The notes below the pieces were generated by a model. It was not told the origin of the DNA. It did not search any database and saw only the letters and a list, made by a program, of their open reading frames with translations. The position numbers and the translations under genes were made by a program. From the NCBI GenBank assembly GCA_964187785.1, contig OZ076409.1, positions 68,822,001 to 68,886,000 on the forward strand: DNA of 64,000 bases, in the 5' to 3' direction. How positions within the stretch are numbered: the first letter of the stretch is position 1; each line of letters begins with the position of its first letter. Below, piece after piece: positions 501-52,207 of the stretch. The stretch comes from Amphiscolops sp. MND2022. Its lineage: Eukaryota.

Positions 501-562
501 GGCAGCGACAAAAATTAGACACATGGAGGAAAATCAAAGTCTTCGAGATAGAAAGCACTAAC

Positions 563-3190: not shown

Positions 3191-5383
3191 AGTCTTTTTG
3201 TTATATATTATCACAAATTTTCCGAAAAAATATTGTGGTATGGTTAAACAGAAAAGATCCAAAGTTTGTAACAGCTTGAACCTTACTTGTCATTTTTCTT
3301 AGTAGATGGTTGGACCAAGCATCCCCTTTCCTGCAAGGAGGAATTCCTATGAAAAGTCAAAGACGTGTCACTTGTGTGGGTACGTTTGTCTCTGTAACAT
3401 CTAACGCAAGTACTCAACTCCACATCAGGGAGCAGCGAATCCTGATGCGACGAACTCCATAAGCAGCAGTTAACAAGAATTCCACTATCCATCAGTGCAG
3501 GTGTTTTATGTTCGGAGTAGTAGATAGAAATCCATCATCTCTGAAACGTAGAAAAGTTTCTGACCGAGATTTGTTTCAAAAAGTTCAACATATAGCCATC
3601 ATAACGGCTTTTCGGTCATGCGACAAGAACAATACTACTCCCACTCATTCAGTCAGCAGCCTTCCTTTGCAATGTCAAACCAATCTTCCCACTTTTTTGG
3701 CTCATTATTTTTGGAAGGCCCAGATGGTGTTACCGAGATTCCTATATATTCACCGAGGCTGAAGCGCGTATGATTGAGAAGTATCGCGAATTAATAGACA
3801 AAGGATACATTTTCTAACCAGTGGCGATGGAAGTACAGGGTTCTTTAGGCGAAAGCAGTGAAATTTTCATCACGCGTGAAAATGATCTGTCGTTTGCGAG
3901 ACGATCAATTAGCTAGCAGCGTTTTGAAGCAACGGATTTCAATGCCTCTTCAGATCAGCAATGCGGCCTGTGTTCTGAGAAATTTATTACATATAACTTC
4001 TGTTTTATCGCCTTGCGGCATCAGTATCGGTTCCGTTTGTCTTCTTCAGTAAACTGAGGGTTTTGCATTTGTTCGTTGCTTGGTGTCTTGACATGTTTGC
4101 AAGCGCTATCAGGGAATCGCATCTCAGGCAGACTCCTTTCTTCGGGACATATTTTCGAGCTGAAGGCAAGTCTTTCTGTGATGTTTCGAGCACTTTTTCA
4201 TGTGGTTCTTCAGTGTGGCTCCTTGTGTGAAAGTCTTGCCGCATTTCTCGCATTGAGTTTCTTTTTGTTGCGAGTCGTGAAGCCTTTTCCTGTGTATAGC
4301 TAGGCCTGCTTTGCTTCTGCACACTTTGTCACAAATCTCGCATTGAAGGGTGTTTTCGGTTGGTGTTTTCGTCGATTCCCTTCTGTCTCTGATGATTTCA
4401 TCGGGTTGGATTACGTGGTTGTGGCCTTGCTGTCTCTCATATTCTTCGAGGTGTTTTACTCTGTTCCGTACGAGCGCTCTCCACTTGGTTCGATCGGTTA
4501 TCAGGTGTTCAATATTGTTGGGATCCTCGCCGGCTTCATTGATAAGTTTGCGCCAGTATGTTATGATGTTTCTGTGTGGGAGTTTTTTCGTCTTATTCTC
4601 TTCTTCTAGTTTGCTGTACCATCCTAGCACTGCCTGTTTCACCAACCTGTCATCGTTCATTCTCAGAACGTGGCCCATTCTTAGGAGGTGAGCTTTATCT
4701 ATCTTCGTTCTGAGAGATGTTACATTCAGTTGTTCTCTGATGTCCGCCATATTTAAGTGTTTCTCTTCCATCTGGCGTAGAGGTTGGCCATTCTTATCGC
4801 TCCAGATGTATCTATATCTCTTGTCCATGAAAGTTTGCATCCTTTTGATCTCTTTCAGCTTGAACGGGCGAACCGATGCATTGAAGAGCATAGTGCTCTC
4901 TATGCAGGCTTCCACTACTTTGGCCTGTGTTCGCTTGGTCAGACGACATTTCAGGAACCTCCTTTTGATGGTAGCCCAGTTCTTTCCCGCCCTTTGGATG
5001 CGTTTCGTTGTGTCATTATTGTTCTCCATCCACGTTCCAAGCATTCGAAGTTCTGTGTTGTTCTTCTCGTCGCCAAAAACCATTTTCTCCTCTTTGTCTA
5101 AGTTCGTTTGTTCTTCAAACTCGAGGAGACATCTTTCCACTATCCTCTTTCCCTCTTCTACTTCATCGTTGTGACCGATTACTGTTGTATCATCAGCGAA
5201 GAGAGAGAGCGTGAAAATTTTTTGGCTTGCATCCGAGTTTTGTTGACCTCTGCGTTGTGGAGGAAATCTGTTTCCTGGTAAATACGACCATCTGATCCCG
5301 CATTGTTTTCCATTTTCCCTGGCAGCTTCCTCCCGCTTGCTCTCTGCTATGCGAATAGCTGCTTGGTGATATATGTTGAAACC

Positions 5384-5407
5384 CGGCCCTGGATTGCTTT
5401 CAATGTC
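5384..5407 (-). other. 2A-like (StopGo) motif DIESNPGP in the RTE ORF
   Basis: KCSALETDIESNPGP matches the D(V/I)ExNPGP consensus. Confidence 0.7.
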
Positions 5408-5574
5408 TGTTTCCAGAGCAGAACATTTGTAAACCCTCTGATGTCTTCGGTTGACAAACGTTGCCGATCGGTTCGCCTGTTTTCTTTTTGAAGAGGTGGA
5501 CTGGTCGGCTAATCCAGCTACCCTCTGTTCCGGAGAGGCTCTTCCAGTTAGTACCTGGTATGTGCCCCCCAGCC

Positions 5575-5643
5575 TGAAATTCTTTTTGTCGTCAGAGACG
5601 TCCACTAGGCACCATGCGAGGAGGTTGAATTTCATCGCCCAGC
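5575..5643 (-). ncRNA. Second copy of the HDV-like ribozyme (231-bp tandem duplication)
   Basis: Same sequence as 5806-5874, offset by 231 nt. Confidence 0.83.
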
Positions 5644-5805
5644 TATTACCCTCTGATTTGTAAACCCTCTGATGTCTTCGGTTGACAAACGTTGCCGATC
5701 GGTTCGCCTGTTTTCTTTTTGAAGAGGTGGACTGGTCGGCTAATCCAGCTACCCTCTGTTCCGGAGAGGCTCTTCCAGTTAGTAACTGGTATGTGCCCCC
5801 CAGCC

Positions 5806-5874
5806 TGAAATTCTTTTTGTCGTCAGAGACGTCCACTAGGCACCATGCGAGGAGGTTGAATTTCATCGCCCAGC
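5806..5874 (-). ncRNA. HDV-like self-cleaving ribozyme at the RTE 5' end
   Basis: P1 GCUGGGC/GCCUAGU with G1-U wobble; P2 UGAAAUUC/GAAUUUCA; P3 ACC/GGU; L3 UCCUCGCAU; GG for P1.1; P4 CGUC-UCU-GACG; J4/2 ACAAAAA with candidate catalytic C. G1 (5874) abuts the TSD. Confidence 0.85.
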
Positions 5875-5885
5875 TATTACATATA

Positions 5886-6012
5886 ACCTCAATCAGAATT
5901 GGATCGTCGTCATCAATCAGCGTTTCTTAAAAAACGCTTCTGTATTCATCATGTGACCCCAGCCCGGGCGGCAGACAAAAAAATCCAACCAACATAGGAA
6001 ACATAAAAGAAC
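5886..6012 (-). mobile_element. 5'-truncated retroposed element (family B) ending in a box C/D-like module
   Basis: TSD TTTATTACATATA at 3983-3995 and 6013-6025. Minus strand reads ATGATGA...CTGA-TTGATGA-CGACGATCCAATT-CTGA. Homologous to 31991-32246. Confidence 0.75.
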
Positions 6013-6753
6013 TTTATTACATATAGTAAAAAAATAGTATTTTTTAAAAAAAGTCTGTATATCATTGCAGCTTTGAAAAAAATTGTTTCTACTGGTCGAC
6101 AGGGATAGTGGCTGGTATGGGGTACCTTTTTCGCCCGAATTGTCACCGAAACGTCCAGAATCTCTCGTTGCATACCACGGGTGTGTGTCTTCTCCCCCCA
6201 ACATGATGTTTCACGTGGCACTTGATCGATCACGAAGATCCATGATATCTGATAGTGGAAAAAAGCACCCCAATTTCTTCAGTTGAAAAGCCTCTTTTGG
6301 TTTATAGCGGAAAAAAAGCGTTCCGCAAGCAGAGACTGCCAATTTTTTAAGGCACAATGGGACTCATCGAAGATTTTTTGAAAATGGTTGCAGAAAAAAT
6401 TCAATTTTTTTTCAGAAAAAGCAGCTTAAATTTTTCATTTTAAGACATTTTCTGGGGTCAAAGTCACATGACTCAAAGTCATTTGGCTTAAGAATTTGAA
6501 GCCGAATCACCATAAAACTAAGTCCATTCTCACTCCAGCACTGGTCAGAAAAACAACTTATTCAAAAAACCAAAAACGGACTTTTCAAGAAACAAAAACA
6601 CCAAACAAAAATTGTCCAAAACGTTCAGCCTGTTTGTCGTCTGGCTTGGTCGCTTCGCTCCCCTCGCCAAGTAGCAACATTGAGGCATGGTTTATGGCCA
6701 TATTTATAAAGAATCAAAAAAGGTAGGAAAATTGACTTGTATAATTTGTTTAT

Positions 6754-7098: not shown

Positions 7099-7222
7099 TT
7101 TGTTTATGAGGGGGAAAGTATATGGAAGAATTTCTCTTCAACATGAAGAACACCCCGAGAACTTTATTTGTTGCAGCTTTAAGATGATGATTCCATTTCA
7201 TATCATCAGATATAAGGATTCC

Positions 7223-13667: not shown

Positions 13668-16600
13668 AGGACAATCTGCCTAATTGTTGTGTTAGACTTA
13701 TTAAATAGAGATGGTAATGTTTTGAACTTGAGACTGGATAACATCTCTGACGCTGTTTTGTTGGTTTGTCGCTGCACTTGGGCTGAAAGAACCATCACAA
13801 CCCGGTGAGATAATCCATTTGTATTTCATTTTATCAATTCAAGGTTTTTTCATACAAGGATTGCTTCACTGCTGTTGCGATTGATTTTTTTGGGGAGATT
13901 GGCACACACAAATGTGTATTCCTGCAATTGGTTAGGTTTCGACGTTGAGTTGTGATGAAAAACAACGAAACCTGCAACGCTCTGAAGTGTCTGAAGCCCT
14001 CAGGGTTGAAAGACTGGGTAAACTGTAGCCTTTGCAACGGATGGGCTTATATAAAACGAGCCATATTATCAAAAACGGTGTCCCGGAACCTTGCCGAATT
14101 AAACTGTTGTAGATGCTCTTCAGTGAACACAATCCCTCAGTGTCATGATGATAATTTTAGACTAGACACCATTTTTAAATCAGGCGTTGCTCACTTGAAA
14201 AGTGTTCTTAAAAGTTCACGGATCCCTCTAGCTGAAAACTTGATATCTAAAATTAATGATATTTGTGAAACACCAACAAATAGTGCCGTGTGGTGCATAT
14301 TGCTCTCCTCTCTAAGCTGCTTTTTGGAAAAACCACCTGAAAGGTTGTAAACGTCAGATGTCATCACTCGGTGCAATAATCAACAAGCGTATTCAGAATG
14401 GTGTCATTGAGAAAAGACCGAAACGCGACAGAAAACCTCAGCAGAAAAGCGAGTTAGATCGACGACTGCGTTCCATTTGCAATAAATTAGACGAAGGTGA
14501 TGTTAAGGCCACAATCAGAATGGCGGTAGGCGACGAAGAGACTGCAGATTTCAAGGTCGACAACTACGCGGCCCTCAAGTTGAAACATCCGCAAAGGGAA
14601 ACTTGCACTGTTCCGGACCCCACAGATAACGATTGTTTCTCAACCTCCAAATTTATTGTCCACAAAGCTCTCATGTCCTTCCCCAACGGCTCTAGTGTAA
14701 GGTTGGATGGCATCTCGCCCCAAAACTTGAATGTATGGACTGCCAAGTCGAACGGGCAAACTGGACTGAATCTTCTCAGAGCCTTAACAAATCTTGTGAA
14801 TGTGATTCTCGAAGGAAAAGTACCTTTCGAATATCGGCCGTATTTCTTTGGTGCGAAACTAATTGCACTGAAAAAGCCTGATGGAGGACTTCGTCCTATC
14901 GCTGTAGGCAATACCTTCCGCCGGTTATCCGCAAAATGCGCCGGATGCCATGTCTTTGAATCACGTCAGGCAAGATACGGAAGCCGACAAGTAGGTGTAG
15001 GCACCAAAAGGGGCGCTGAATTGGCCTCACATGTTTTCCGTTGTTTGATAGAAAGCGCCCAGCCCAAAGAAAACGTAATTTTGAAAATTGACTTTGAAAA
15101 CGATTTCAATTCGATTAACCGACAATTCATGCTAGAGAAAACTGTTGGAAAACTTTTGGTACTAACACTCGGCGTACAGTCAACCAAGTTTTCTTTTTTA
15201 CGGTGATTCAGTAATCAAATCTTGTGAAGGGACTAGCAAGTAGATCATCAGTCTCCAGCTTTGTTTCGGCTTCCATTCAGGCTCTAATTGACAGTTTGGA
15301 GTCGAAAATAAATTTATGGTACCTTGACAATGGAAATTTAAGTGATGATTACAGAACCGTTTTGAAAGATCCCAAAAAAATAGTTGATGCGGAAAAAACG
15401 CTGGGTTTCAAAATTAAACTCATGAAATGTGAAATTTTTTCCTTGAGGATATCACTGGAAAACGCCGAATAAAAATTTTTGGCATCTTTCCCAAAACTTT
15501 GCCCGGGATCAAAACATCAAAGAAAGATGAACCTATCATTCTTGGTTCAACGCTCGGCCCGAATTCACAAGCAGACTTCTTGGAAAAGAAAATCAATGAA
15601 CAACAAAAAGTTAATGGAATTGTTGAAAAGCTAGATGCGCACTGTGGTTTTTTTATACAGAAAATTGCTTCAGTCTGCCAAAGTTGTTGTACGTCCTGAG
15701 AACCAGTACATGTTTTAATCACCCAGCTTTCTTGGAAAAGTATGACAAAACGGTACGCGACGGGCTTCCCAGGGTGTGTAACGTGAACTTCGATGATATT
15801 TCGAGTACTCGGCTGGCTCTGTCCGCTGAAATGGGCGGTCTTGGGGTGTCATTGGCATCATTATTAGAACTTCCCGCCTTTTTGGCCTCAGCTTTTGGTG
15901 CCAGTGACTTTCTCACGACGATTTTTTTGGAAACATTCGAAGATGTTTCATTTACAAAAGCGCTTGCGAAATGGTTGAGTTTGACGAATGAACAGGAAAG
16001 TCCTCTCGATGGAACCCAGAAAAATTGGACAAAACCTGTCTACGTCAAAACCGCCCCATTTGATTTCAAAAAGGGATGACAAACGTTCGAAAGTTTTTAA
16101 CGCTCATCAAGGCAAGTTCGGGTCTCAATGGCTCAACGTCGTTCCTTGTAAGAACCTAGGCCTGAAGCTTGTAAGATCAGCAACTTCGGATTGCAATTGG
16201 TTTACGTCTCGGAGCCAACATTTGCGTTGCGCATACGTGCTACTGTGGTAAAAGAGTGTAACGGGACGGCTTACACGGTCTTTCTTGCACCAAGAGTGCT
16301 CGTCGTTTTTCAAGTCATGCTACTGTCAATTATCGCATTAAGCAGACATTAGGCTCTCTCGATTCGCCTGCAATGCTCAAACTGCGTGGACTCTACCGAA
16401 CTGATGGCAAACATCCAGATGGTGTTACCATGATTCCTTGGGAAATGGTTAAACAGCTGGTGTGGGATGTCACGGTTGTGGATGCTCTTGCACCCAGTCG
16501 CCTGAATCAAGGCTCTTTATGCAACCCAGGAACTACCGCCACCGAGGCTGAAGTGCGTGAAATTGAGAAGTATCGCGAATTAATGGACAATGGATTCGTT

Positions 16601-16974
16601 TTTCAACCAGTGGCCTTGGAAGTACAGGGTTCTTTAGGCGAGAGCGTGAAATTTTTATCACGCGTCTCTGTAAAATGCTCCCTCGTTCGCACGACGATCA
16701 ACGAGCTGGCCGCTTTTTGAAGCAGCGGATTTCAATGGCTCTCCAGATTGGCAATGCGGCCTGTGTTCTAGGAACTGTGAGCGACAGAGTTGCGTCCGAA
16801 GAAATTTAATAATTTATTTTATTTTTTAAAAAAAACCTCTATATCACCGCAGCTTTAAAAATTTCTACCAGTCGACTGGGATAGTAGTTTGTTGGCTGGT
16901 CTACTGGAATAGTGGCTAGTACGGTTTTCCCTACGTTCGTTGCAGTGCAGACCACGGGTGTGTGTTTTCTCCCC

Positions 16975-17790
16975 CAGGCTATTCAATCTCAAAATCAATC
17001 CCAAACCCAATCTCACTCTCAAACTCAATCTTTTCCAATTCAAACCCAATCTCAATCCCTTCCCTACAAAATTTATAGGTTCAATCCCAATATCAATCCT
17101 GCTTTTGACTTTGACTTTCTTCTGCAATAGCCAGTAAAAATTTGTAATATGAGCGCGCATTACATTTCATTGATCATGTCTAGTCTTCTCATTTAATTTT
17201 CAGATGGCAGATGTACATGTAGTGGAAGACAACGACGAGAATGGAGCAAAAGCAGGTCCAAGTACGTCACGGATACTGGTTGAGTTCCGCTTGTGCGATA
17301 CAAAAGGCTCGGACGTGCATCAAGAAATAGGAGCCTCAAAATTTGAAGTTGAAGCGTACATGAAGAACTTACGTCCCACTTCAGTTGATACGGAACGATT
17401 ACTTTCAATTTCTCGGATCTCTAAGAACTCCTTCAAGGTCGCTTGACACCGGGAAATCATCACCGAAGTGTGTACTTGCGTAAAAATGAGCACTTACTGT
17501 ATGATTAATTTGTTCGCTTATTTTCTCTTTTTTTTTATCCAAAAAATGTTACATGAACCATTGTTTTAGATTAATCAGTTAAAAGTAGTTTAAATGACTC
17601 AAAAAATTCGGGTTCAGGATTTTTGATTTTGTAGTGGAAATATTCGAAATCTACGTTAAAAATTGATTATGACCTCGAAAATCTAGTTTTTTCTCAATCC
17701 CTAAGCGCTAAGGATGACCAATTCTAATCTCAATCCCAAAATAGAAAACCAATCTTCAATGTTCAGAAATTCAAGCGCTTGAATTGCCTG
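16975..17790 (+). mobile_element. Non-autonomous hAT element (hAT-A) in the CRE 3' UTR
   Basis: 8-bp TSD TTCTCCCC (16967-16974, 17791-17798). TIRs CAGGCTATTCAA / TTGAATTGCCTG. Remnant RPTSVDTERLLSISR. Further copies at 22634-23497, 28316-29165 and (partial) ~30951-31275. Confidence 0.9.
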
Positions 17791-17792
17791 TT

Positions 17793-17860
17793 CTCCCCCC
17801 AACATGATGATACACATGGCACTTGATTGATGACGAAGATCCATGATATCTGATAGAGGG
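17793..17860 (+). ncRNA. Box C/D snoRNA-like module at the CRE 3' terminus (family A)
   Basis: CTCCCCCC-AAC-ATGATGA(C)-TACACATGGCAC-TTGA(D')-T-TGATGA(C')-CGAAGATCCATGATAT-CTGA(D)-TAGAGGG-A tail. Copies at ~6193, 23500, 29168, 31278, 32285, 50756 and 52139. Confidence 0.6.
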
Positions 17861-20800
17861 AAAAAAGGACAATCTGTCATGCTCCCTTTGAGTTCCCTGT
17901 TGAATCATTTCACCTGAGCGTTATCCGAGAAATCCCAATGCAAATACTAGCAAGATGTTGAAAAAGCATCATTTGCTAAAAGTAATGAATTTGCTATCCA
18001 CTTCGTCGTTGTAGCAGACATATTCAACGAAAGACTTTCTAGAATCAAGAAACTTTTAGCTGCAGCAATTTTTGGAGTACCATTTACTACTAGTGGTGTA
18101 CGTGATGATGAAAAATCATTTTTGATCCAACTGGAAGATTTAACTTTCCGTTGAATAAAGCAAACAGGTGAGCTTAACAAATAAACTAATCACTTGTTAA
18201 TTAATCACTTACAGGTGTTGTCTCAGGCTCAATTGCATGCGATACGAAGTGGTCCCGGAAAAGTCAACACTGTACTGCCACCTGCAGTACTTCCGCTTTG
18301 GACTAAGGTCTATTCAGCTACAACAAACATTTTCGCTGACAAATTAGTACTATTTGACCCTATTATAATGTAAGGTGTTTCACTGTTGTTTTATATTTCT
18401 AGTACTATTGACAGACTCAATTCACTGAGTACAGGAAGCGTAAACAACAGGAATACGTATGAATGCTGCATTTACATGTTAAAATGTGATTAACTTAAAA
18501 CACGATTTGAGGAGCGATACACAGAACATTTACATTTCACAATTTCACATGATAGGTTCATTAATTGGAGAAGTTGAATGAATTGTAGTAGGTGCTCTTT
18601 AGTGAACAAAATCCCTCAGTGTCAAAATGATAACTTAGACCAGACACCCTTTTTATTTCAGGCCTTGTTCACTAGAAAAAAGTTCCTAAAAACTCACGCA
18701 TCCCCCTAGCTGAAAACTTGATACCCAAAACTAATGATACTCGTGAAACCCTGTCAAATATTGCCTTGTGGTGCTTACTGCTCTCCTCTCTAAGCTGTTT
18801 TCTGGAAAAACCACCTCGAGGAGTTAAACGTCAGAGGTCATCCCTCAGTGCAATTATCAACAAGCGTATTCGGGATGGTGTCATTGAGAAAGAACCGAAA
18901 CGCGACAGAAGACCGCACAAAAAAGCGAGTTAGATCGACGACTGCGTTCCATTTGCACTAAATTAGACGAAGGTAAGGGTAGGGCCAGAATCAGAATGGC
19001 GGTAGGCGACGAAGAGATTGCAGATTTCACGGTCAACAACTACGCGGCCCTCAAGCTGAAACATCCGCAAGGGGAAACTTGCACTGTTCCGGACCCCACA
19101 GATTAAGATTGTTTCTCAACCTCCAAATTTGTTGTCCACAAAGCTCTCATGTCCTTCCCCAACGGCTTTAGTGCAGGGTCGGATGGCATTTCGCCCCAAA
19201 TTTTGAAAAATTTGACTGCCAAGTCGAACGGGCAAACTGGACTGAAATTTCTCAGCGCCTTAACAAATCTTGTGAATGTGATTCTCGAAGGAAAAGTACC
19301 TTTCGAAGATCGGCCGTATTTCTTTGGTGCGAAACTAATTGCACTGAAAAAGCCTGATGGAGGACTTCGTCCTATCGCTGTAGGCAATACCTTCCGCCAG
19401 TTATCCGCAAAATGCGCCAGATACCATGTCTTCGAATCACGTCAGGCAAGATACGGAAGCCGACAAGTAGGTGTAGGCACCAAAACGGGCGCTGAATTGG
19501 CCTCATATGTTTTCCGTTATTTGATAGGAAACCCCCAACCCAAAGAAAACGTAATTTTGAAAATTGACTTTGAAAACGCATTCAGTTCGATTAACCGACA
19601 CCTCATGCTAGAGAAAACTTTTGGTAAACTTTTGGTACTCACACTCGGCGTACAGTCAACCAAGCTTTTGTTTTCGGTGATTCAGTAATCAAATCTTGTG
19701 AAGGGACCCAGCATGTAGATCATCAGACTCCAGCTTGGTTTTCGGATTCCATTCAGGAGTTAATTGACAGTTTGGAGTCGAAAATGAATTTATGGTACCT
19801 TGACGATGGAAATTTAAGTGATGATTACAGAACCGTTTTGAAAGATCCCAAAAACAATAGTTGATGCGGAAAAAACGCTGGGTTTCAAAATTAAACTCAT
19901 GAAATGTGAAATTTTTTCCTTGAGGACATCACTGGAAAACGCCGATCAAAAACTTTTAGCATCTTTCCGAAACTTTGCCCGGGATCAAAACATCAAAGAA
20001 AGATGAACCTATCATTCTTGGTTCAACGCTCGGCCCGAATTCACAAGCAGACTTCTTGGAAAAGAAAATCAATGAACTACAAAAGGTTAATAGAATTGTT
20101 GAAAAGCTAGATGCGCACTGTGGTTTTATTATACAGAAAATTGCTTCAGTCTGTCAAAGTTGTTGTACGTCCTGAGAACCAGTACATGTTTTAATCACCC
20201 AGCTTTCTTGGAAATGTATGACAAAACGGTACGCGACGGGCTTCCAAGGGTGTGTAACGTGAACTTCGACAATATTTCGAGTACTCAGCTGGCTCTGCCC
20301 GCTGATATGGGTGGTCTTGGGTTGTCATCCGCATCATTTTTAGAACTTTCCGCCTTTTTGGGGTCAGCTTTTGGTGCGAGTGACTTTCTCAAGACGATTT
20401 TCTTGGAAACATTCGAAGTTGTTTCGTTTACAAAAGCGCTTGAGAAATAGTTGAGTTTGACGAATGAACAGGAAAGTCCTCTCGATTGACAAAACCTGTC
20501 TACGTCAAAACCGCCCAAGATTTGATTTCAAAAACGGATGACAAACGTTCGAAAGTTTTTACCGCTCATCAAGGCAAGTTCGGGTCTCAATGGCTCAACG
20601 TCGTTCCTTTAAGAACCTAGGCCTGAAGCTTGTAAGATCATCAACTTCGGATTGCAATTGGTTTACGTCTTGGAGCCAACATGTGCGTTGCGCATACGTG
20701 CTACTGTGGTAAAAGAGTTGAACGGGACGGTTTACACGGTCTTTCTTGCACCAAGAGTGCTGGTCGCTTCTCACGTCATGCTACTCTCAAATCTCTCACA

Positions 20801-20972
20801 AAGCAGACGTTGTGATCTCTCGACTTGCCTTCAGTGCTCGAACCGCGTGGACTTTACCGAACTGATGGCAAACGCCCAGACGGAGTTTCGATGATTCCTT
20901 GGGCAATGGGTAAACAGCGGGTGTGGGATGTCACGGTTGTGGATCCACTTGCATCCAGCCGTCTGTATCATG

Positions 20973-26654: not shown

Positions 26655-27821
26655 CAGGGATTGCAATTCCAAAAGCAATTAATTGCATGCAATTACAATT
26701 AATTGCGGCTTTGAGGCATGCAATTTCAATTAGCAATCATCAAATACACTAAGGGCAAATAGCAATTAGAGCGAAAGTTTATGCAATTTTTGCAATTTTT
26801 CAGGGTTCTTCCGCAAAAAATAAGATTTTTTATAATATATTTATTTTATTATAACTTAAATTGAATTCCAAACAGAAAAGTCGGGCTCTTGGCTAAAATT
26901 AATTCGCGACAATGCAACAAGATGGAACAGTTTGTTGGACATGCTTGTGCGCTTTTTACATTTGCGAACTTATCTCAATGTTATTGATGTCGAGGGTGAC
27001 CTTGAAATGTATAATTGCGAGGCGCTGCAGCAGTTAATTAATGTTTTACAACCGCTTAAAGACAAAACACTCGAGTTGCAAAAGAAATCCGCTAATGCCA
27101 AAACAGCTGTTGATGCAATTAATTATCTGAGAATGGTAGTTTCCAGAGAAGCAACGATGCAGCAGCCTATAAAGATGTTCTCAGCAAATGAATAGATGGA
27201 AACAGTGTAGTGGAAGGTCTAATTCATTCCTGAGGAAACTTTCATGACTTTATTGTTTCTAACATGCCGCGCAATGAACATGCTGTTACATCTGATCATG
27301 CATACAATCCACTGAGGGTCATGGTTTTCAGTGAATTTATGAAGCGAAGCTGTCTCGACGACGAAATTGATATAATACCATTTCTTGAGAATTTTAGATC
27401 AGAGAGTGTTGACCCCAAGAGACGTTTTCCTTATTGAAGACTGACGACAAATTATCTTCAAAACCGTCTAACGCCAGAAAATCTTTCGAGAAACGGGTTT
27501 ATCAAGAAAAACAAACACCTGTTGGAGTAACAGATAAATAATGTATATATAATTTTGGAGTAATGCAGTGCTTTCTTTCAAAGCATTTTATTTCACGCTG
27601 AGTGTAATTTATGTTTTCTTTTTTTAGTTTTGTTTTTAATACGAGATATCTCACAAGCTGCTTCTTCACCAGATTCATTGTCAAATTCTGATATCCTGAT
27701 AGATACTGAAAAACAATTGCAATTACAATGATTAACATAATAAATTGGGCACTTGCATTTAGCAATTATTTTTTGCTCTGCTTTTTCAATAATTGCATTT
27801 TGCAATTAATTGCAATCCCTG
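26655..27821 (+). mobile_element. hAT-B, duplicated copy
   Basis: Same TIRs, flanks and internal sequence as 20973-22144. Confidence 0.9.
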
Positions 27822-30800
27822 GAATCAAGGCTCTTTATGCAACCCGGGAACCACCGCCACCGAAGCTGAAGCGCGTAAAATTGAGAAGTAACGCGAAATA
27901 ATAGACAATTGATATTTTTCAACCGGTGGCCTTGGAAGTACAGGGTTCTTCAGGCGAGAGCAGTGAAATTTCCATCACGCGTCTCTGAAATGCTCTGTCG
28001 TTCGCACCACGATCAACGAGTTGGCAGGTTTTTGAAGCAACGGATTTCAATGGCTCTTCAGATCGGCAATGCGGCCTGTGTTCTAGGAACTCTGAGTGAC
28101 AGAGATGCGTTCTAAGAAATTTATTACATCTAGCTATTTTTTAAACCTCTATATCATTGCAGCTTTAAACGAAAATTCTACCCATCGACTGCGATAGTGG
28201 GTGGTATGAGTAGTTTGTTGGTTGTTCCTTTTTGCTACTGGTCTACTGGGAAAGTGGCTGGTATATGTTCCCTACTTTCGCTGCAGTGCAGACCACGGGT
28301 GTGTGTTTTCTCCCCCAGGCTATTCAATCTCAAAATCAATCCCAAACCCAATCTCACTCAAACTCAATCTTTTCCAATTCAAACCCAATCTCAATCCCTT
28401 CCTTACAAAGTTTTTAGGTTCAATCCCAATATCAATCTTGCTTTTGACTATGACTTTCTTCTGCAATAGCCAGTAAATATTTGTAATATGAGCGCGCGTT
28501 ACATTTCATTCATCATGTCTAGTCTTTTCATTTGTTTTTCAGATGGCAGATGTACATGTAGTGGAAGACAACAACGAGAATTCTTCAAATGGAGCAGAAG
28601 CAGGTCCAAGTACGTCACAAATACTGGTTGAGTTCCGCTTGTGCGACACAAAAGGCTCGGACGTGCATCAAGAATTAGAAGCCTCAAAATTTGAAGTTGA
28701 AGCGTACATGAAGAACTTTCGTCCCACTTCAGTAGATACGGAACGATTACTTTCAATTTCTCGGATCTCTAAGAACTCCTTCAAGGTCGCTTGACACCGG
28801 AAAATCATCACCGAAATGTGTACTTGCGTAAAAATGAGCACTTACTGTATGAATAATTTGTTCGCTTATTTTCTCTTTTGTTTATCCAATAAATGTTACA
28901 TGAACCATTGTTTTAGATTATTCAGTTAAAGGTAGTTTAAACTAATCGAAAATTTGGGTTCAGGATTTTTGATTTTGTTGTGGAAACTCAAACTCTTGGT
29001 CAAATATTACTTTTTATTCGAAATCTACGTTAAAAATTGATTATGACCTCGAAAATCTAGTTTTTTTCTCAATCCCTAAGCGCTAAGATTGACCAATTCT
29101 AATCTCAATCCCAAAATAGAAAACCAATCTTTAATCTTTAAAAATTCAAGCGCTTGAATTGCCTGTTCTCCCCCCAACATGATGATACACATGGCACTTG
29201 ATTGATGACGAAGATCCATGATATCTGATAGAGGGAAAAAGGACAATCTGTCATGCTCCCTTGGAGTTCCCTGTTGAATCATTTCACCTGAGCGTTTTCC
29301 GAGAAATCCCAATGCAAATACTAGCAAGATGTTGAAAAAGCATCATTTGCTAAAAGTAATGAATTTGCTATCCTTCGTCGTTGTAGCGGACATATTCAAC
29401 GAAGGACTTTCTACGATTCTACAGCAATTTTTGGAGTACCATTTACTACTACTGGTGTACGTGATGATGAAAAATCATTTTTGATCCAACTGGAAGATTT
29501 AAGTTTCCGTTGAATAAAGCAAACAGGTGGGCTTAACAAATAAACTAATCACTTGTTAATTAATCACTTACAGGTGTTGTCTCAGGCTCAATTGCATGCG
29601 ATACGAAGCGGTCCCGGAAAAGCCAACACTGTACTGCCACCTGCAGTACTTCCGCTTTGGACTAAGGTCTATTCAGCTACAACAAACATTTTCGCTGACA
29701 AATTAGTACTATTTGACCCTATTATATTGTAAGGTGTTTTTTTTATATTTCTAGCACTGTTGTTTTATATTTCTAGTACTATTGACAGACTCAATTCACT
29801 GAGTACAGGAAGCATAAACAACAGGAATACGTATGAATGCTGCACTTACATGTTGAAATGTGATTAATTTAAAACACGATTTGAGGAGCGATACACAGAA
29901 CATTTACATTTCACAATTTCACATGATAGGTTCATTAATTGTAGAAGTTGATTGAAATGTAGTAGGTGCTCTTTAGTGAACACAATCCCTCAGTGTCAAG
30001 ATGATAACTTAGACCAGACACCCTTTTTATTTCAGGCCTTGTTCACTAGAAAAAAGTTCCTAAAAACTCACGGATCCTCCTAGCTGAAAACTTGATACCC
30101 AAAACTAATGATACTCGTGAAACCCTGTCAAATATTGCCTTGTGGTGCTTACTGCTCTCCTCTCTAAGCTGTTTTCTGGAAAAACCACCTCGAGGAGTTA
30201 AACGTCAGAGGTCATCCCTCAGTGCAGTTATCAACAAGCGTATTCGGGATGGTGTCATTGAGAAAGAACCGAAACGCGACAGAAGACCGCACAAAAAAGC
30301 GAGTTAGATCGACGACTGCGTTCCATTTGCACTAAATTAGACGAAGGTAAGGTTAGGGCCAGAATCAGAATGGCGGTAGGTGACGAAGAGATTGCAGATT
30401 TCACGGTCGACAACTACGCGGCCCTCAAGCTGAAACATCCGCTAAGGGAAACTTCCACTGTTCCGGACCCCACAGATATCGATTGTTTCTCAACCTCCGA
30501 ATTTGTTGTACACAAAGCTCTCATGTCCTTCCCCAATGGCTTTAGTGCAGGGTTGGATGGCATTTCGCCCCAAATTTTGAAAAATTTGACTGCCAAGTCG
30601 AACGGGCAAACTGGACTGAATCTTCTCAGAGCCTTAACAAATCTTGTAAATGTGATTCTCGAAGGAAAAGTACCTTTCGAACATCGGCCGTACTTCTTTG
30701 GTGCGAAACTAATTGCACTGGAAAAGCCTGATGGAGGACTTCGTCCTATCGCTGTAGGCACTACTTTCCGCCGGTTGTCAGCAAAAGGTGCCGGATACCA

Positions 30801-31623
30801 TGTCTTCGAATCACGTCAAGTAAGATATGGAAATCAACAAGTAGGTGTAGGCACCAAAAGGGGCGCTGAATTGGCCTCACATGTTTTCCGTTGTTTGGTA
30901 GAAAACCCCCAACCCAAAGAAAACGTAATTTTGAAAATTGACTTTATGTATTACTGTATGAATAATTTGTTCGCTCGTTTTCTCTGTTGTTTATCCAATA
31001 AATGTTACATGAACCATAGTTTTAGGTTAATCAGTTAAAGGTAGTTTAGATTAATCGAAAAGTTCGGGTTCAGGATTTTTGATTTTGTTGTGGAAATTCA
31101 AACTCTTGGTCAAATATCACTTTTTATTCGAAATCTACGTTAAAAATTGATTATGACCTCGAAAATCTAGTTTTTTTTTCAATCCCTAAGCGCTAAGATT
31201 GACCAATTCTAATCTCAATCCCAAAATAGAAAACCAATCTTTAATCTTTAGAAATTCAAGCGCTTGAATTGCCTGTTCTCCCCCCAACATGATGATACAC
31301 ATGGCACTTGATTGATGACGAAGATCCATGATATCTGATAGAGGCAAAAAAGGACAATCTGTCATGCTCCCTTGGAGTTCCCTGTTGAATCATTTCACCT
31401 GAGCGTTTTCCGAGAAATCCCAATGCAAATACTAGCAAGATGTTGTAAAAGCATCATTTGCTAAAAGTAATGAATTTGCTATCCACTTCGTCGTTGTAGC
31501 GGACATATTCAACGAAGGACTTTCTACAAAAACTTTGTTCTCAGGTTTTTCAAACGTTCAAAAAGGGCCTGTCTGAACTTTTTTCAGCGGCCAATTGAAG
31601 TCAACGGTTTTGTCTGCAAGTAA

Positions 31624-31965
31624 GGGTAGCTGTCTATGGGTCGAATTTTTCTGGTCGAAAGGACAGAGGTCGAACCTTTCGATCGAATTGCTGGGATCGA
31701 ATGGAATGCGGTCGAATTTTATCGTATTTGTTGTATGGCTCAGTCGCTTCGCTCCCTTCGCCAAGTAGCAACTTTGAGGCATGTTCATATGGCACGTCGC
31801 TCCGCTGCGCTTCGCTCCTGCATTCAGGACACTAGGGGTATGTGAACATATCTGACTAATGTTTTCGATCCGAGTTGTTCGATCCCATTCAAAAAATTTG
31901 GTATGTCGACCTGAGGACTAACTCTGATTTTCGATCCCGTTCCTTCGACCTATTTCCGCACACCC
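31624..31965 (-). mobile_element. Second copy of the 345-bp MITE, inverted, no TSD
   Basis: Reverse-complement homolog of 6754-7098; its flanks do not match each other. Confidence 0.85.
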
Positions 31966-31990
31966 AGTGGCTAGTATGGGGTTCCCTACG

Positions 31991-32246
31991 GGGTATATCA
32001 GAATTGGATCGTCGTCATCAATCAGCGTTTTAAAAAACGCTTCTTTATTCATCATGTGCCCCCAGCCCGGGCGACAGACAAAAAACTCCAACCAAGATAG
32101 GAAACAAAAAGAATTGAGAAACGAGATCATGCAACCTGAGAGTTCAATGGATCGAGGACTTTTCAATTCAGAAACTCAATGAGGCAAAGAACACATTGAT
32201 TTCTTGATTAAACAAAACGGTCATCGAACACAGATTTACAAGTTAC
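31991..32246 (-). mobile_element. Family B retroposed fragment (256 bp) with C/D-like 3' end, inside a CRE 3' UTR
   Basis: TSD GTTCCCTACG (31981-31990, 32247-32256). On the minus strand: C box 32055-32049, D' 32025-32022, C' 32021-32015, D 32001-31998. The host CRE 3' UTR continues to the A tail at ~32359. Confidence 0.8.
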
Positions 32247-33330
32247 GTTCCCTACGTTCGTTGCAGACCACGGGTGTGTGTCTTCTCCCCCCAACATGAT
32301 GATACACATGGCACTTGATTGATGACGAAGATCCATGATATCTGATAGAGGGAAAAAAATTCATAAAGAGAATGACATCGTCTCGAACAATTTCATAATT
32401 TGGCATTGGCAAGAGATTCAGAATAAATCTTTCGGAGGTACAAATTTATTCAGTCTGGTTAAGTTATATTTCTTAACAAATGAACCAGTACTTTCTACAT
32501 GAAGCATGAGATATGCTGAAAATGCGGTAAAATCAAACAGGTTGATAACTTCGAAGGAAATGCTCACTCAACGCACTATCCTTCAGAATTACAGCCAATC
32601 AGAGCGCTGGTTGATGTAGTCTTTTGGACTACCAGTCCCCAATTCTATCACACGCTTTACCTCTATGCAGTATGATGATTTGACATTAAAAGTATACCGC
32701 CACCCCCAGTGCTTCAACAAACAACTATATTTCATTTCACTACGGTCAGTTCTATTCATAGCGTTTTTGCTGAACTAGAAAGTATAGATGTAATATTGGG
32801 ATGTTATCCCAGAAACGAGTGTGTAAGCCTCCAGATTGACAGCGAAATAGAACACATTCTTATAAGCTAAACAAAGCCTACATGAGAAGATTTTAGGTCT
32901 CTACCAAACACGAATAGTAGGGAAAATGGAGAGATCACGACAGAAACTGCTAGAATGACAAACTCTGAGATTGCAAGTCGAATATCGAAGAAACTAGATG
33001 GACTTACAATGGAACTCAGTTCTCAGACTTTACGATCCAATAATTCCGCAACTACTGAGAAAGTCCTTCTAACATTTCAGAAATCTAGTTATGCAAGACA
33101 ACTGGTTTAGCACAAAAGTGGATCTTCGGTTCAGCGGGCTACACAGGATGGTATGTTACGCGGAAAAACAGGTAAAACCATTTTGGTCCACTTCGCTAGG
33201 CCAAATGGTGCAATTTGACACCATAATTTTTTGTAGAACTTTTAAGAACTATTTTGGTCAGTTCGTGTGGATAGAAAAAAAAGAGTCACTATAATAGTCG
33301 CGTTTCACTTCATGAAGCGCCGACTAAAAA

Positions 33331-36909: not shown

Positions 36910-37557
36910 CGGTTTCATTTCCCCTTACTGTCCCGTAACCTTTAAAGACCCCACCGACGGACCTGCCCGTCAATCATTCGTCTGTCATTCATTCATTAAT
37001 TGTGTTTGTAAACAACTTATTCAGTTCAAAAGTAAAGTCGATCATTAATTGTGTTTGTAAACAACTTATTCAGTTCAAAAGTAATTATATGAAACATGTA
37101 AATGTTGTTCATTCTGTTACGTCACTAAAATTAGATAACATCATTGGAATATTATTGTATCATACAACTGTATCGTAAACTGCCAATGTGGATCAATCTA
37201 CTGTGCTCAGTTTGGTTCGAAATTGATACTGTTCTAAACAACCTTTTACATCCGAAGATCATCAGGGCTTAAGCTGCAGAGGTTACCCACATTTTCTGGT
37301 CCGCCGACCCGGATGAACCCGTGCCCGCCCGAATAATTTTGCAACCGGTGGGGATTCGTCTACAGCTTGAAAGTGCCGTGAAAGAATTTTGTTTGGACAG
37401 ACCCGTGACTTAGACTGGCAATCCTGGGCAACCGTGTTCACCAGCCGTATCAACCAACGCATCCTTCAACTTGTTGGTGGGGAAGTGTGAAGTATTTTCT
37501 TTTGGAGAAAAAACTGTTAGTGACTTTGAAAACGATTCGATTCGAACACTTAAACTC

Positions 37558-40500
37558 TCTTGACTTTTGAGGCTGAGTGAGACGAAGAGTTGTTAGTTTC
37601 AATTCAACTGTATTCAGAGAAGTTAACAGAAAAGTGATTTACAAAACAAACATGAGAAGTTAATGATTATCTCCCGCTGAAATACAAAAAGCGTGACTTG
37701 TTTTAACTGGAGAAGTTGTTCATACATAACAAAAATCTTGTTTCTAGCTTCGAAACATGCTATGACTTCTTATATTTTAAAACTCCCCCTTTTCGGAGCT
37801 CGATTACAAGTTACATTCTCCGGAGAGTCTTTTGCTGAACATTTCAACCTTAACTTTTGCCAACGGTTTAGTTAGCAAGTCGGCAATCATTTCACTGGTT
37901 GGACAAAACTCAACATCCAAATGTTGCATTTCTATTTTTTCTTGTATGAAGCTCAACTTAATTGCAAAATGCTTCACTTTCTGAGAATTCACTGTATTTT
38001 TAGTTATGGCGATACAAGCCTGATTGTCTACATGTACCTTAGTAGGCTTTTCAGTGTCAATTCCGATCTCGTTCGCTAGGCCCCGCAGAAACTCAAGTTC
38101 TTGAGATGCTGCGAATAACGACATTGTTTCTGCCTCAGCTGTCGAGGTCGCCACCGTTGTCTGTAACTTAGAACTCCAACTAATAGCTCCTGATTCTGAG
38201 TTCAAAAAGAAGCAAAAACCACTGGTGGACCTCCTATCATCTAACTTTCCTGCCCAGTCGGCATCACTGAAACCTGTGAGCACGAGTGTTTTGGATTTTC
38301 TATACGTCAGTTTCCTACACTTTGTTGCCTTTAAATACCTCAAAATGTGTTTTCCTTGTAACCAATGTTTACGGCCTGGATTTTGAACGTATCGACTTAA
38401 TGCTCTGACGGCGAAAGTTATATCAGGTATTGTTGTGTTCGCTAAGTAGTTCAGACAACCAATCATTCCACGAAAATTACAATTTTTCATTTCCTTTTGT
38501 TCTTGGCTGCCTTCGTCAGGACAGTCCGACCTACTGATTTGTTGCTTTTCAGCAACAGGCGTAAAAAGTCCTTTGGCATATTTCATTCCAAAGTTTTCAA
38601 GTAATTTTTCGATGTAGTTTTCTTGGGAAATTTCTAGTCTACCTTTTTCATGTCTGATTTGCATTCCCAAGAACCAGTTCAAGTCATCAACTTCACTGAT
38701 CAAGAACTTTGTGCTCAGTGCTTTCTCAAATTTTTCGTAAAAATTAATATCGTCGCTACAGTAGACTAAATCGTCTACCCACTTTGCTACAAAATCCTTA
38801 TGACCGTTTCGTTCCCTCAAAAACAAACAAGGATCACTTTTGCTCGGCTTGAACTGAATGCTCAGCAAAAAATCTCTAAGTGTATTGAACCAGTTGCGAC
38901 CGGACTGCTTCAATCCATAAAGTGATTTTTTCAATCTACAAACATAGCTTTTGCCGTTGGCATTTTTCTTAACAAATCCTGGTGGTTGATCAACAAACAT
39001 TTCTTCTTCTATACCAGCGTTCAAGTAAGCGGTTTTTATGTCTAACTGTTTCAACTTCATTTCGTTTTGAACTGCCGAACTCAGTAAAACTCGAAGTGTT
39101 ACCATTTTGACAGTCGGACTATATGTTTGATCGTAGTCAACACCTCGTTTTTGTTTAAATCCTCTAGCCACGTATCTTGCTTTGTGCCTAATAATTTCTC
39201 CTTTACTGTTTCGCTTAAGTGCAAAATGCCATTTACCTGTAACGAGGTTTTTTCCTTCCGGCATTTCAACAATGTCCCAAACTTCATTTTTCTGTAAAGA
39301 GTCGTATTCCGCTTTCATCGCACGATACCACTCTGGAGAAGAAAGTGCTTCTTCAATGCTTTTCGGTAACTCTTGATCAACATAATCGCTATGGTATGCA
39401 AACGTTTCAATTTCATCGAACTCAGACGAACCTAAATTGTAAGACAAGTTGCTGCTTGTACCTGGGGCGTATCTGTTGGGCGGCTTGACTTTTCGTCCGT
39501 ACCTAGTCGTAGTATGCACACTCGAACTATGCGGTTGATTTTGTGTTATACTCTCGTCGGAAATTTCGTTCACCAAAGTTTCTGGATTACCGCCTAAATC
39601 ACCGTTTGGCAACTCACTCACATCTTTTATCAAGTTGTGTGTATCGGCGACTAATTCCGTGTTTTGCAACTCTACTTCACTCCCCCTTTCGTTGAGTTCG
39701 AAGAAAAATTCACTGCCACTTTCATTGTTTGAGAAAAGTGTTTTTCCTGGAAAACTAGTCTCGTTGAATTTTACATTTCGGCTACTTTTCGTGATAAGCT
39801 CTGCGCCCTCGAAAAATCCGATCAGATATGACTTAGAATTGTTGCTATAGCCGAGTAAAAAACCTTCCAAAGCTCTACTTTCAAGTTTTTTTCGCTTTGG
39901 TTTCTCTAAGTACATGAATGCTTGACATCCAAAAACTCGAAAATGGGACAAATCAGGTGTCTTGTCAAAAAACTTCTCAAACGGTGTCATGCCATGAGCA
40001 GAGTGAAGGCACCGGTTTTTATGTCGAAAGCTGCTCGGTATGCAAACGACCAAAAAGTTTCAGGTAAGCCTGCTGTTTTCAACAGACACCTCGCCATCGC
40101 GCCGATGGTTCCCCAAACTCGCTCTATTTTACCGTTTTGTTCTGGAGTGTATTCGCAAGTAAACTCCTGATGAATTCCTTGCTGTAAACAAATGTCAGCG
40201 AAATTTCCAAACTTGAACTCTTTAGCATTATCAGTGACAATCTTGCGAGGTTTGCCAAGCTCAGCTATAAACTTCAAAAGCTTCGTTCCGACTTCGGTTT
40301 TTGTTCTTAATAGATAAACAGCACCGAGTCTGCTGAAGCTATCAACGAATCCTAGAGCGTACTTGAATTCATCTATCGACACTGTGTTTACTGGCGATAT
40401 ATCTACGTGGACTATGTCTAAAGGTTTTTTAGCTCTAGTTGCAACTTTTCGGCTTATCGGTAACCGCTTAGCCTTTTCGGTGTTACACACATCGCAAGGT

Positions 40501-50261: not shown

Positions 50262-50845
50262 AGTCGCCTGAATCAAGGCTCTTTATGCAACCCGGGAACC
50301 ACCGCCACCGAGGCTGAAGCGCGTAAAATTGAGACTCATAGCGAATTAATAGACAATGGATACATTTTTCAGTCAGTGGCCTTGGAAGTACAGGGTTCTT
50401 TAGGCGAGAGCAGTGAAATTTTCATCACGCGTCTCTGTAAAATGCTCTGTCGTTCGCACGACGATCAACGAGCTGGCTGCTTTTTGAAGCAACGGATTTC
50501 AATGGCTCTCCAGATCGGCAATGCGGCCTGTGTTCTAGGAACTGTGAGCGACAGAGATGCGTTCGAAGAAATTTATTACATATAGCCTAATTTTTCTTAC
50601 CTTTATATCAAAGCAGCTATAAAAAAATTTCACCGGTCGACTGCATAGTGGCTGGTTTGAGTAGTTTGTTGGTTGTTTTTTTTTGTTACTGGTCTACTGG
50701 TATAGTGGCTGGTATGGGGTTCCCTACTTTCGTTGCAGACCACGGGTGTGTGTCTCCTCCCCCAACATGATGATACACATGGCACTTGATTGATGACGAA
50801 GATCCATGATATCTGATAGAGAAAAAAACAAAGAAGAAAAAAAAG
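50262..50845 (+). mobile_element. 5'-truncated CRE 3' fragment with uninterrupted 3' UTR
   Basis: ORF end ...DRDAFEEIYYI* at 50585, then a ~240-nt UTR, the C/D-like module and an A-rich tail. Another fragment lies at ~51850-52208. Confidence 0.85.
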
Positions 50846-51740: not shown

Positions 51741-52207
51741 AGAAAATATGAAGACCGCGTCGTCAAAGTCGAGAAGACCACATTATGTCCGCTGATTTTT
51801 TCATGCATTGGAGGCGCAGGCCCATAAGCGACCAAAGCGATGAAAAATATCTCTGTAAAATGCTGTCGTTAGCACGACGATCAACGAGCCGGCAGTTTTT
51901 TGAATCGGCAATGCGGCCGGTGTCCTAGGAACTGTGCGCGACAGATGCGTTCGAAGAAGTTTTTTACATATAGTTTATTTCTCTTAAAAACCTATATCAT
52001 TGCAGCTTTTTAAAAAATGTTTCTACCGGTCGACTGTGATAGTGGCTTGTATGAACAGTTTGTTGGTTATTTTTTTGTTACTGGGATGGTGGCTGGTATG
52101 GGGTTCCCTACTTTCAATGCAGAAAACGGCTGTGTCTTCTCCCTCCAACATGATGATACACATGGCACTTGATGACGAAGATCCATGATAACTGATAGAG
52201 GGGAAAA

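What the first reader, a model, noticed from the sequence alone, without database searches (positions are those of the whole stretch)
31991..32064. A second retroposon family ends in the same C-D'-C'-D architecture
Seen on the minus strand: GGGGGcac-ATGATGA-ataaagaa-GCGTTTTTTAAAACGC hairpin overlapping CTGA-t-TGATGA-CGACGATCCAATT-CTGA-tataCCC. A second copy lies at ~5886-5960. The copies share the 3' module but have different 5' ends (127 and 256 bp) and different TSD lengths (13 and 10 bp), as expected for 5'-truncated TPRT products. Compared with family A, the four boxes and the core TGATTGATGACGA-GATCCA are kept, the C-to-D' spacer and upstream sequence are unrelated, and the closing stem is flipped (G-run/C-run here, C-run/G-run in A; this is weak in the 5886 copy). 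Inference: keeping the boxes while replacing spacers argues for a functional RNA module shared between retroelement lineages.
Basis: partly seen in the sequence, partly recalled or inferred. Interest (0 to 1): 0.82.

Follow-up and report, generated by a model that had tools for sequence, protein, structure and literature searches.

The report
Retrocopies ending in a snoRNA module
In an acoel worm, two reverse-transcribed inserts end in a four-box motif that likely derives from a known rRNA-methylation guide RNA (SNORD19/69 type), and a neighbouring LINE-type retrotransposon ends in a related motif, which suggests that these mobile RNAs may use snoRNA proteins as a 3' cap.

Summary
Two minus-strand inserts (256 and 127 bp, with 10- and 13-bp target duplications) end in a C-D'-C'-D module; the strict pattern occurs twice in the window and never in 100 shuffles. 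'Family A' is the 3' UTR of an RT-encoding non-LTR element (CRE-like, recalled label) in an acoel. A and B share 21/22 box and 10/13 C'-D spacer bases, but not upstream sequence. New: B's D-guide is predicted to pair, in exact D+5 register, with 28S G4464 and 18S G683, the dual target of SNORD19/69; A's guide is 3 nt out of register. B has no A-tail and no clear ORF, and both copies lie antisense inside A 3' ends. The 'flipped stem' is real in one copy only. B is most likely a non-autonomous, 5'-extended snoRNA-ended RNA carried by a non-LTR reverse transcriptase; a second autonomous CRE lineage is not excluded. B's parent was not found, acoel rRNA was not tested, and snoRNP binding is untested. 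No module was found in 115 distant relatives.

The parts
31991..32246 (-). B copy 1, whole insert (256 bp): about 190 nt of U-rich non-coding sequence, then the C/D module; no A-tail
32049..32055 (-). box C of B copy 1
   Evidence: sequence
32025..32040 (-). 7-bp hairpin that occupies the D' guide position; extended to 8 bp in copy 2
   Evidence: fold
32015..32025 (-). box D' directly followed by box C'
   Evidence: sequence; weak matches to archaeal-type sRNA models below threshold
32002..32014 (-). D-guide, predicted to pair with the 28S G4464 site (11 bp, 3 G-U) and the 18S G683 site (8-9 bp, 1 G-U), D+5 on the methylated G
31998..32001 (-). box D of B copy 1
   Evidence: sequence
31991..31997 (-). 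7-nt tail; pairs with the G-run at 32059-32063 in the same register as A's terminal stem (this copy only)
31981..31990 (+). left 10-bp target duplication of B copy 1 (A sequence)
32247..32256 (+). right 10-bp target duplication of B copy 1
31970..32358 (+). A 3'-end copy interrupted by B copy 1; its own module is at 32296-32345, followed by 7 nt and a short A-run
5886..6012 (-). B copy 2 (127 bp); box C 5952-5946, box D 5896-5893; 7-nt tail resembles A's tail
6013..6025 (+). right 13-bp target duplication of B copy 2, at the ORF stop of an A copy; left copy at 3983-3995
3998..5874 (-). later 5'-truncated non-LTR insertion (RTE-like, recalled label; C2H2 fingers) with its own 13-bp duplication (3985/5875), giving a triplicated target site
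3752..6264 (+). A 3'-end copy (ORF end 3752-3995, UTR and module 6013-6264) interrupted by B copy 2 and the RTE-like element
13955..17866 (+). near full-length, decayed A element: ORF covering residues 1-956 of the 959-aa RT-bearing protein P0034, 3' UTR interrupted by a DNA element, module at 17804-17853
50264..50842 (+). uninterrupted 5'-truncated A copy with ORF end, 231 nt from stop to box D, A-rich tail and 11-bp TSD; reference for the empty sites
51846..52205 (+). A copy with 12-bp TSD and a 4-nt deletion of box D'

Best explanation
B consists of two reverse-transcribed inserts ending in a C-D'-C'-D module, which likely come from a non-autonomous RNA whose 3' end is a box C/D snoRNA of the SNORD19/69 type, likely copied in trans by a non-LTR reverse transcriptase. 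Shown: target duplications, shared 3' end 7 nt past box D, no A-tail, no recognisable ORF, antisense position inside A 3' ends, homology of the module to A's terminal module. Predicted: the D-guide pairs with the 28S G4464 and 18S G683 sites. Inferred: (1) the source is a 5'-extended snoRNA transcript, or a SINE-like master derived from one, whose 3' end is set by exonuclease trimming against bound C/D proteins; (2) the CRE-like element A captured a homologous snoRNA as its 3' terminus, kept the boxes and terminal stem, and lost guide register; (3) because B presents the same kind of end, A's protein is the likeliest carrier, engaging B's tailless 3' end by template jumping, which would place it antisense in or beside A 3' ends.
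For: Best relevant Rfam alignment puts B's guide on the SNORD19B guide, though below threshold (18.2 vs 50 bits). The guide forms an 11-bp duplex from -2 to -12 at one conserved site in 25 of 26 fetched 28S loci; this site and the 18S site are the published SNORD19/69 targets (PMC6984369 supplement rows). Duplex energies are -13.5 (28S) and -12.1 (18S) kcal/mol, against -10.6/-16.2 for the SNORD19B consensus guide and -13.8/-13.1 for Xenopus SNORD69; A gives -6.4/-9.2. Shuffled guides did as well in 8-18 of 400 trials across 4 rRNA sets. The two B copies differ at 0 of 35 box and guide positions, with 8 difference events elsewhere in the aligned part before the tail. B's targets do not begin with an A-run, whereas both A copies with a found TSD do. 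Both B copies are antisense within A's last 400 nt; naive chance 6e-4, or 8e-3 counting all A sequence. Precedents: snoRNA retrocopies and site triplication (PMC1687206), tailless retrocopies including 42 from snoRNAs (PMC5322556), template jumping by R2 RT (bioRxiv 2021.04.30.442027).
Against: No Rfam family reaches threshold. The SNORD19B hit did not recur for copy 2, where SNORD5 and archaeal models scored best, all below threshold. The 28S duplex needs three G-U pairs. Only 2 of 48 fetched 18S loci give the 8-9 bp duplex with a single G-U. No acoel rRNA was available, and the loci were fetched with motifs next to the sites I already suspected. Mammalian snoRNA retroposons normally start at the mature 5' end and carry an A-tail; only U99 had long upstream sequence. 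The 0-of-35 sparing of boxes is not significant (about 0.07 by my arithmetic). The two tails differ, so the true 3' end is uncertain. The module does not fold better than shuffles (z -0.65 and 0.11). n = 2; the same A 3' region also took an RTE-like and a hAT-like insertion, so it may be a general hot spot. Weak hints of a CRE ORF end in B exist.
Confidence: 0.45

Rival explanations
1. B is the 5'-truncated 3' UTR of a second autonomous CRE-like family. A and B inherited the module from a common retrotransposon ancestor and kept it under selection while the rest of the UTR diverged. The module may still have come from a captured snoRNA.
For: Several related RT families at 55-85% identity exist in unnamed records. 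Both A and B end 7 nt after box D, and B copy 1 keeps A's stem register with C-G to G-C changes. B's first 12 codons resemble a CRE C-terminus: 23 of 3145 window stops score as high with a focused profile, about 0.04 over the 6 stops scored around B; stop-to-D distance is 210 nt against 231 in A. A collinear A/B alignment was matched by 19 of 300 shuffles.
Against: With the broader profile 57 of 3348 stops score as high (about 0.10). B scores 3.1, against 12.3 for a decayed true A end and 16-28 for the training set. The peptide and the nucleotide alignment imply different registers. No A-tail and no A-run target. The guide is in register for known rRNA targets in B but not in A.
Confidence: 0.3
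2. B copies are ordinary dead retropseudogenes of a host snoRNA precursor, mobilised by whichever LINE was active (for example the RTE-like element). A's module is a neutral relic of an old capture, and the position inside A reflects a generic insertion hot spot.
For: The RTE-like element inserted 2 nt from B copy 2 in the same orientation, triplicating the site, as described for snoRNA retroposons and SINEs sharing one machinery. A hAT-like element also hit A's UTR. Old A copies lose boxes (A6k 19/22; A52k D' deleted).
Against: All four boxes and the stem register are intact in most A copies, while the guide has slipped. That pattern suggests selection on protein binding in the A master (inference). 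Two copies within 26 kb imply a high copy number or targeting, unusual for a single snoRNA gene (inference).
Confidence: 0.17
3. The motif is not a snoRNP site. It is an element-specific recognition sequence for the reverse transcriptase that happens to resemble C/D boxes, and the rRNA complementarity is chance.
For: No Rfam hit at threshold. Shuffled guides match as well in 2-4.5% of trials. Distant relatives use a conserved terminal hairpin at the same position, so some terminal signal is expected.
Against: Four canonical boxes in the right order and spacing (0 of 100 shuffles), ending a few bases past box D, with D+5 landing on two published methylation sites served by one snoRNA family.
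Confidence: 0.08

Closest known systems
SNORD19/SNORD19B/SNORD69 box C/D family (Rfam clan CL00048 for SNORD19B; PMC6984369)
   Same: D-guide of the same register and predicted dual target (18S G683, 28S G4464). B's last 10 guide bases match SNORD19B or Xenopus SNORD69 at every position except -2 (compared by eye).
   Different: Whole-sequence score far below threshold. D' abuts C'. A hairpin covers the D' guide. At least 190 nt of 5' extension. Found as dispersed retrocopies; host gene unknown.
Mammalian snoRNA retroposons, types 1-3 (Weber 2006, PMC1687206) and tailless retropseudogenes (PMC5322556)
   Same: snoRNA sequence bracketed by 10-13 bp TSDs; ends 0-9 nt past the mature end; site triplication with another element.
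   Different: B extends upstream rather than downstream (only U99 did so in that study), has no A-tail, and lies antisense in a LINE that carries a homologous module.
Platypus snoRTE / PlatSINE1 (seen through passages in PMC7245038 and PMC4233971; the original paper was not read)
   Same: A snoRNA built into a retroposon and amplified by a non-LTR machinery.
   Different: [quoted passage not shown] Here a C/D module is the 3' end, both of B and of an autonomous-type element.
CRE-like RT + restriction-like-endonuclease non-LTR retrotransposons (clade name recalled, not tested against named references)
   Same: A encodes a single 959-aa PHD-RT protein with the recalled endonuclease motifs; 5'-truncated copies with TSDs. 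CRE makes up 1.0% of one published acoel assembly (PMC6451197).
   Different: Distant relatives end in U-rich sequence with (TAA)n tails or a short hairpin, not a C/D module.
sno-lncRNAs and trypanosome telomerase RNA (recalled; not retrieved in any call)
   Same: A C/D snoRNP at the 3' end of a longer RNA, serving as an exonuclease block.
   Different: Those are host RNAs, not retroelement templates; the resemblance here is by analogy only.

Membership tests
Box C/D snoRNA | Box C (RUGAUGA) near the 5' end and box D (CUGA) near the 3' end, with internal D' and C' | tested here: met
   2 in window vs 0 in 100 shuffles
Box C/D snoRNA | Antisense element of about 10 nt or more before D or D', with D+5 on the target | tested here: inconclusive
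   11 bp with 3 G-U on non-acoel 28S; shuffles 8-18 of 400; acoel rRNA not available
Box C/D snoRNA | Terminal stem / K-turn | tested here: inconclusive
   5 of 7 positions pair in copy 1, 3 of 7 in copy 2; no folding signal over shuffles
Box C/D snoRNA | Expression as a stable RNA bound by Snu13, Nop56/58 and fibrillarin | not testable with these tools
   no RNA holder listed
SNORD19/69 family | Rfam gathering score | tested here: not met
   SNORD19B 18.2 vs 50 bits; not listed for copy 2
SNORD19/69 family | Guide complementary to 18S G683 and 28S G4464 in D+5 register | tested here: met
   predicted duplexes, (non-acoel targets)
SNORD19/69 family | Hosted in a GNL3 intron | not testable with these tools
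   no genome held
TPRT retrocopy | Target-site duplication with matching empty site | tested here: met
TPRT retrocopy | A-rich or simple-repeat tail | tested here: not met
Autonomous CRE-like LINE (for B) | RT-endonuclease ORF upstream of the 3' UTR | tested here: inconclusive
   no tblastn hit in B; weak C-terminal resemblance; only 256 nt available
SINE (for B) | High copy number, small-RNA-derived head with internal promoter, LINE-derived tail | not testable with these tools
   both copies probably 5'-truncated; 2 copies in 64 kb
CRE clade (for A) | Single ORF with RT and C-terminal restriction-like endonuclease | tested here: inconclusive
   RVT_1 met by Pfam; endonuclease motifs recognised by eye
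CRE clade (for A) | Phylogenetic grouping with named CRE elements | not tested
   the tree holds no named reference elements

The most novel reading that the evidence does not exclude
Acoel CRE-like retrotransposons have domesticated a box C/D snoRNA as their 3' terminus. The snoRNP replaces the poly(A) or hairpin end as cap and recognition signal. RNAs ending in the same module (B) are picked up by this machinery and home to A copies, possibly by pairing of the shared module with A's DNA, giving antisense insertions just upstream of A's module.
Probability: 0.2. Interest if true: 0.85.

Novelty: new variant of a known kind. Interest (0 to 1): 0.58.

Why it matters
Known snoRNA-retroposon links put the snoRNA at the 5' end (snoRTE, U3-L1 chimeras) or copy it passively with an A-tail. 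A C/D module as the 3' terminus of a LINE-type RNA would be a different way to end, protect and select a TPRT template, and would tie retrotransposition to nucleolar RNP assembly. It would be relevant to R2-type insertion tools, where template 3'-end stability matters. Four literature searches on this combination listed no paper that, by title or abstract start, describes it; the library omits most subscription journals and Repbase reports. B would also extend the SNORD19/69 dual guide to acoels. If B is just a snoRNA retropseudogene and A's module a relic, the interest is modest.

Tried and rejected
Rfam at gathering threshold: 0 hits in 64 kb. ARAGORN: 0 tRNAs. Exact shared-core patterns: 0 hits in metagenome, genome and viral collections. 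Sequencing runs: one small-share run (X1), no RNA holder listed; its contigs covered an A 3' end with a different flank and gave no cover on B, which proves nothing. A sequence-only model of A+B found 10 hits in the window (8 A, 2 B; no third family) and 0 in 99 + 16 relative loci. In the tree of the first 99 loci (65 with ORFs of 700 aa or more) none fell in the acoel elements' clade, and the 16 later loci are 21-36% identical to the query, so close relatives remain untested. A short 18S motif in viral contigs returned 12 chance hits and no rRNA. The idea that A's end descends from the terminal hairpin of other CRE-like elements was dropped because that hairpin is confined to a distant clade. 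An H/ACA RNA in B's upstream part: no H box seen and no Rfam hit. B and A D' guides: no conserved rRNA match. Fritz homologue search: no hits. Earlier scan findings: nothing relevant. The sigma-70 scan does not apply to a eukaryote. PDB search gave only weak RT and PHD matches. bioRxiv supplements and figure images (for example the SNORD19/69 pairing figure) could not be seen.

Full report
Setting. The window is repeat-rich eukaryotic DNA. A TrpRS fragment has its best named hit in the acoel Symsagittifera roscoffensis (88%, against 79% or less for other named animals), so the host is an acoel. No genome is held. I call it CRE-like from recalled motifs; I did not test this against named references.

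Observation. The string and the second copy are as described. Target duplications are 10 bp (31981/32247) and 13 bp (3983/6013), giving inserts of 256 and 127 bp, and intact A copies show the empty sites. The strict four-box pattern occurs twice, both B, and never in 100 shuffles; the relaxed pattern occurs 9 times against a mean of 0.02. A sequence-only model finds 8 A and 2 B modules and nothing else in the window. A and B agree at 21/22 box positions and 10/13 of the C'-D spacer, but at 2-3/12 of the C-D' spacer and 3/16 of the 5' flank; upstream similarity is at chance level (83 of 500). All copies end 7 nt after box D. In copy 1 the tail pairs with the upstream G-run in exactly A's register; in copy 2 it does not show the flip, and it matches A's tail at 5/7. 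The flipped stem therefore rests on one copy.

(i) Neither B copy has an A-tail or an A-run target, whereas the two A copies with a found TSD have both. (ii) Both B copies are antisense within the last 400 nt of A copies; the naive chance is 6e-4, or 8e-3 counting all A sequence. This is post hoc with n = 2, and the same region also took an RTE-like and a hAT-like insertion. (iii) The RTE-like element inserted 2 nt from copy 2 and triplicated the site, which Weber reads as consecutive events at one site (PMC1687206, passages). (iv) The conserved non-box bases form a guide.

The guide. A permissive Rfam scan aligned B's D-guide with that of SNORD19B, below threshold (18.2 vs 50 bits); the hit did not recur for copy 2. 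PMC6984369 (passages, section 5 and supplement rows) shows that SNORD19 and SNORD69 form one family that methylates 18S G683 and 28S G4464. Using eukaryotic rRNA contaminants from public bins (48 18S and 26 28S loci), B's guide forms an 11-bp duplex (3 G-U) at the G4464 site in 25 of 26 28S loci, with D+5 on that G. It forms an 8-9 bp duplex (1 G-U) at the G683 site in the 2 of 48 loci that read like the published target. Energies are -13.5 and -12.1 kcal/mol, within the range of the two reference guides; A, whose guide is 3 nt longer, gives -6.4 and -9.2. Shuffled guides equalled B's best score in 17, 18, 14 and 8 of 400 trials on four rRNA sets. That the best site is also a known methylation site adds weight (from my knowledge, 1-2% of rRNA positions are 2'-O-methylated). 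Caveats: the loci were fetched with motifs beside the suspected sites, and no acoel rRNA was available. Between the two B copies, 0 of 35 box and guide positions differ against 8 events elsewhere before the tail; this is suggestive only (about 0.07).

Is B a second LINE? Related RT families at 55-85% identity exist in unnamed records, but their DNA could not be fetched. B shows no protein match. Its first 12 codons faintly resemble a CRE C-terminus: 57 of 3348 window stops score as high with a broad profile and 23 of 3145 with a focused one, where B scores 3.1 against 12.3 for a decayed true end. A collinear alignment with A's ORF end and UTR was equalled by 19 of 300 shuffles and implies a different register. 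This leaves the question open, at about 30%.

Distribution. Among 99 + 16 distant relative loci the model found nothing, and none of the 60 ORF ends inspected (some with little or no downstream sequence) showed a terminal C/D module. Nineteen of 55 usable UTRs end instead in a covarying 7-bp hairpin, confined to one distant clade. None of the 65 loci placed in the tree belongs to the acoel elements' clade, so the module may be lineage-specific, but close relatives are untested. Exact-pattern scans of three collections were empty. The one public run held an A end at another locus and gave no cover on B.

Mechanism. Shown: B is reverse-transcribed, ends just past box D without a tail, and shares its module with A's terminus. 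Predicted: SNORD19/69-type guide pairing. Inferred: the source RNA is a 5'-extended snoRNA transcript, or a SINE-like master from one, whose end is set by bound C/D proteins; A captured a homologue, kept boxes and stem and lost guide register, which suggests a role as a cap or binding site; a non-LTR RT, most likely A's, engages B's end by template jumping, an activity shown for R2 RT (bioRxiv 2021.04.30.442027, passages). Antisense RNA-LINE chimeras are known for L1 (PMC13174262, passages). Whether B entered during A's own integration or later cannot be told.

Comparison. B works like a snoRNA retroposon (PMC1687206, passages) or a tailless retropseudogene (PMC5322556, passages), but differs in its upstream extension and in the homologous module on the LINE it interrupts. 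snoRTE carries an H/ACA RNA at its 5' end (PMC7245038 and PMC4233971, passages). B fails Rfam membership of SNORD19B, so I claim 'guide of the SNORD19/69 type', not membership. Searches (listings only, apart from the papers named) showed no report of a 3'-terminal C/D module on a LINE. For acoel background I saw passages of PMC9911081 and PMC6451197; PMC7650587 passages only confirmed that CRE is a named clade.

Verdict. A real feature and a new variant of a known kind. The part that would surprise a specialist is the C/D module at the end of A, and its possible link to B's placement; B alone may be an ordinary snoRNA retrocopy. Interest 0.58.

Noticed in passing
L034:3264-3289 and 18 other loci (alignment A5): A clade of CRE-like elements (median 51% protein identity) ends in a conserved 7-bp hairpin just before the A/(TAA)n tail; 99.2% of cells pair, 2 pairs show two-sided changes, 0 of 500 shuffles reach the covariation score. 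Probably the RT recognition signal of that clade.
   Followed up: partly
window 16976-17790 (and repeats near 22635-23497, 28317-29165): Non-autonomous DNA element with short terminal inverted repeats and an 8-9 bp duplication (hAT-like, recalled label) inserted in A's UTR about 13 nt upstream of box C.
   Followed up: partly
window about 14000-31500: Tandem array of about 5.7-kb units, each holding a decayed A element, the DNA element and flank; four of the eight A modules are therefore not independent insertions.
   Followed up: no
window 5425-5880: 231-bp tandem duplication (99% identical) at the 5'-truncated end of the RTE-like element, with 6 nt of microhomology to the target site.
   Followed up: no
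window 32144-32171 (minus strand): A degenerate second D'-C'-guide-D-like stretch with the same six-base core inside B's upstream region; could be a decayed tandem copy or chance.
   Followed up: no
window 31622-31969 and 6753-7100: Two copies (about 90% identical) of an element with inverted ends; the 31.6-kb copy abuts the truncated A copy without a visible target duplication.
   Followed up: no
window 37557-42839: Copia-type element with 226-bp terminal repeats 99.6% identical and long ORFs: a recent insertion. Pao/BEL-like remnants (recalled label) at about 43800-48500.
   Followed up: no
window 515-2288 (minus) and 53453-53980 (plus): Fritz/WDPCP and TrpRS coding stretches run for 175-287 codons without interruption, suggesting intron-poor genes.
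   Followed up: no
window 50745-50785: In A, a GU-rich stretch upstream of box C can pair with the D' guide region (9 bp), an alternative fold that would compete with box C assembly.
   Followed up: no
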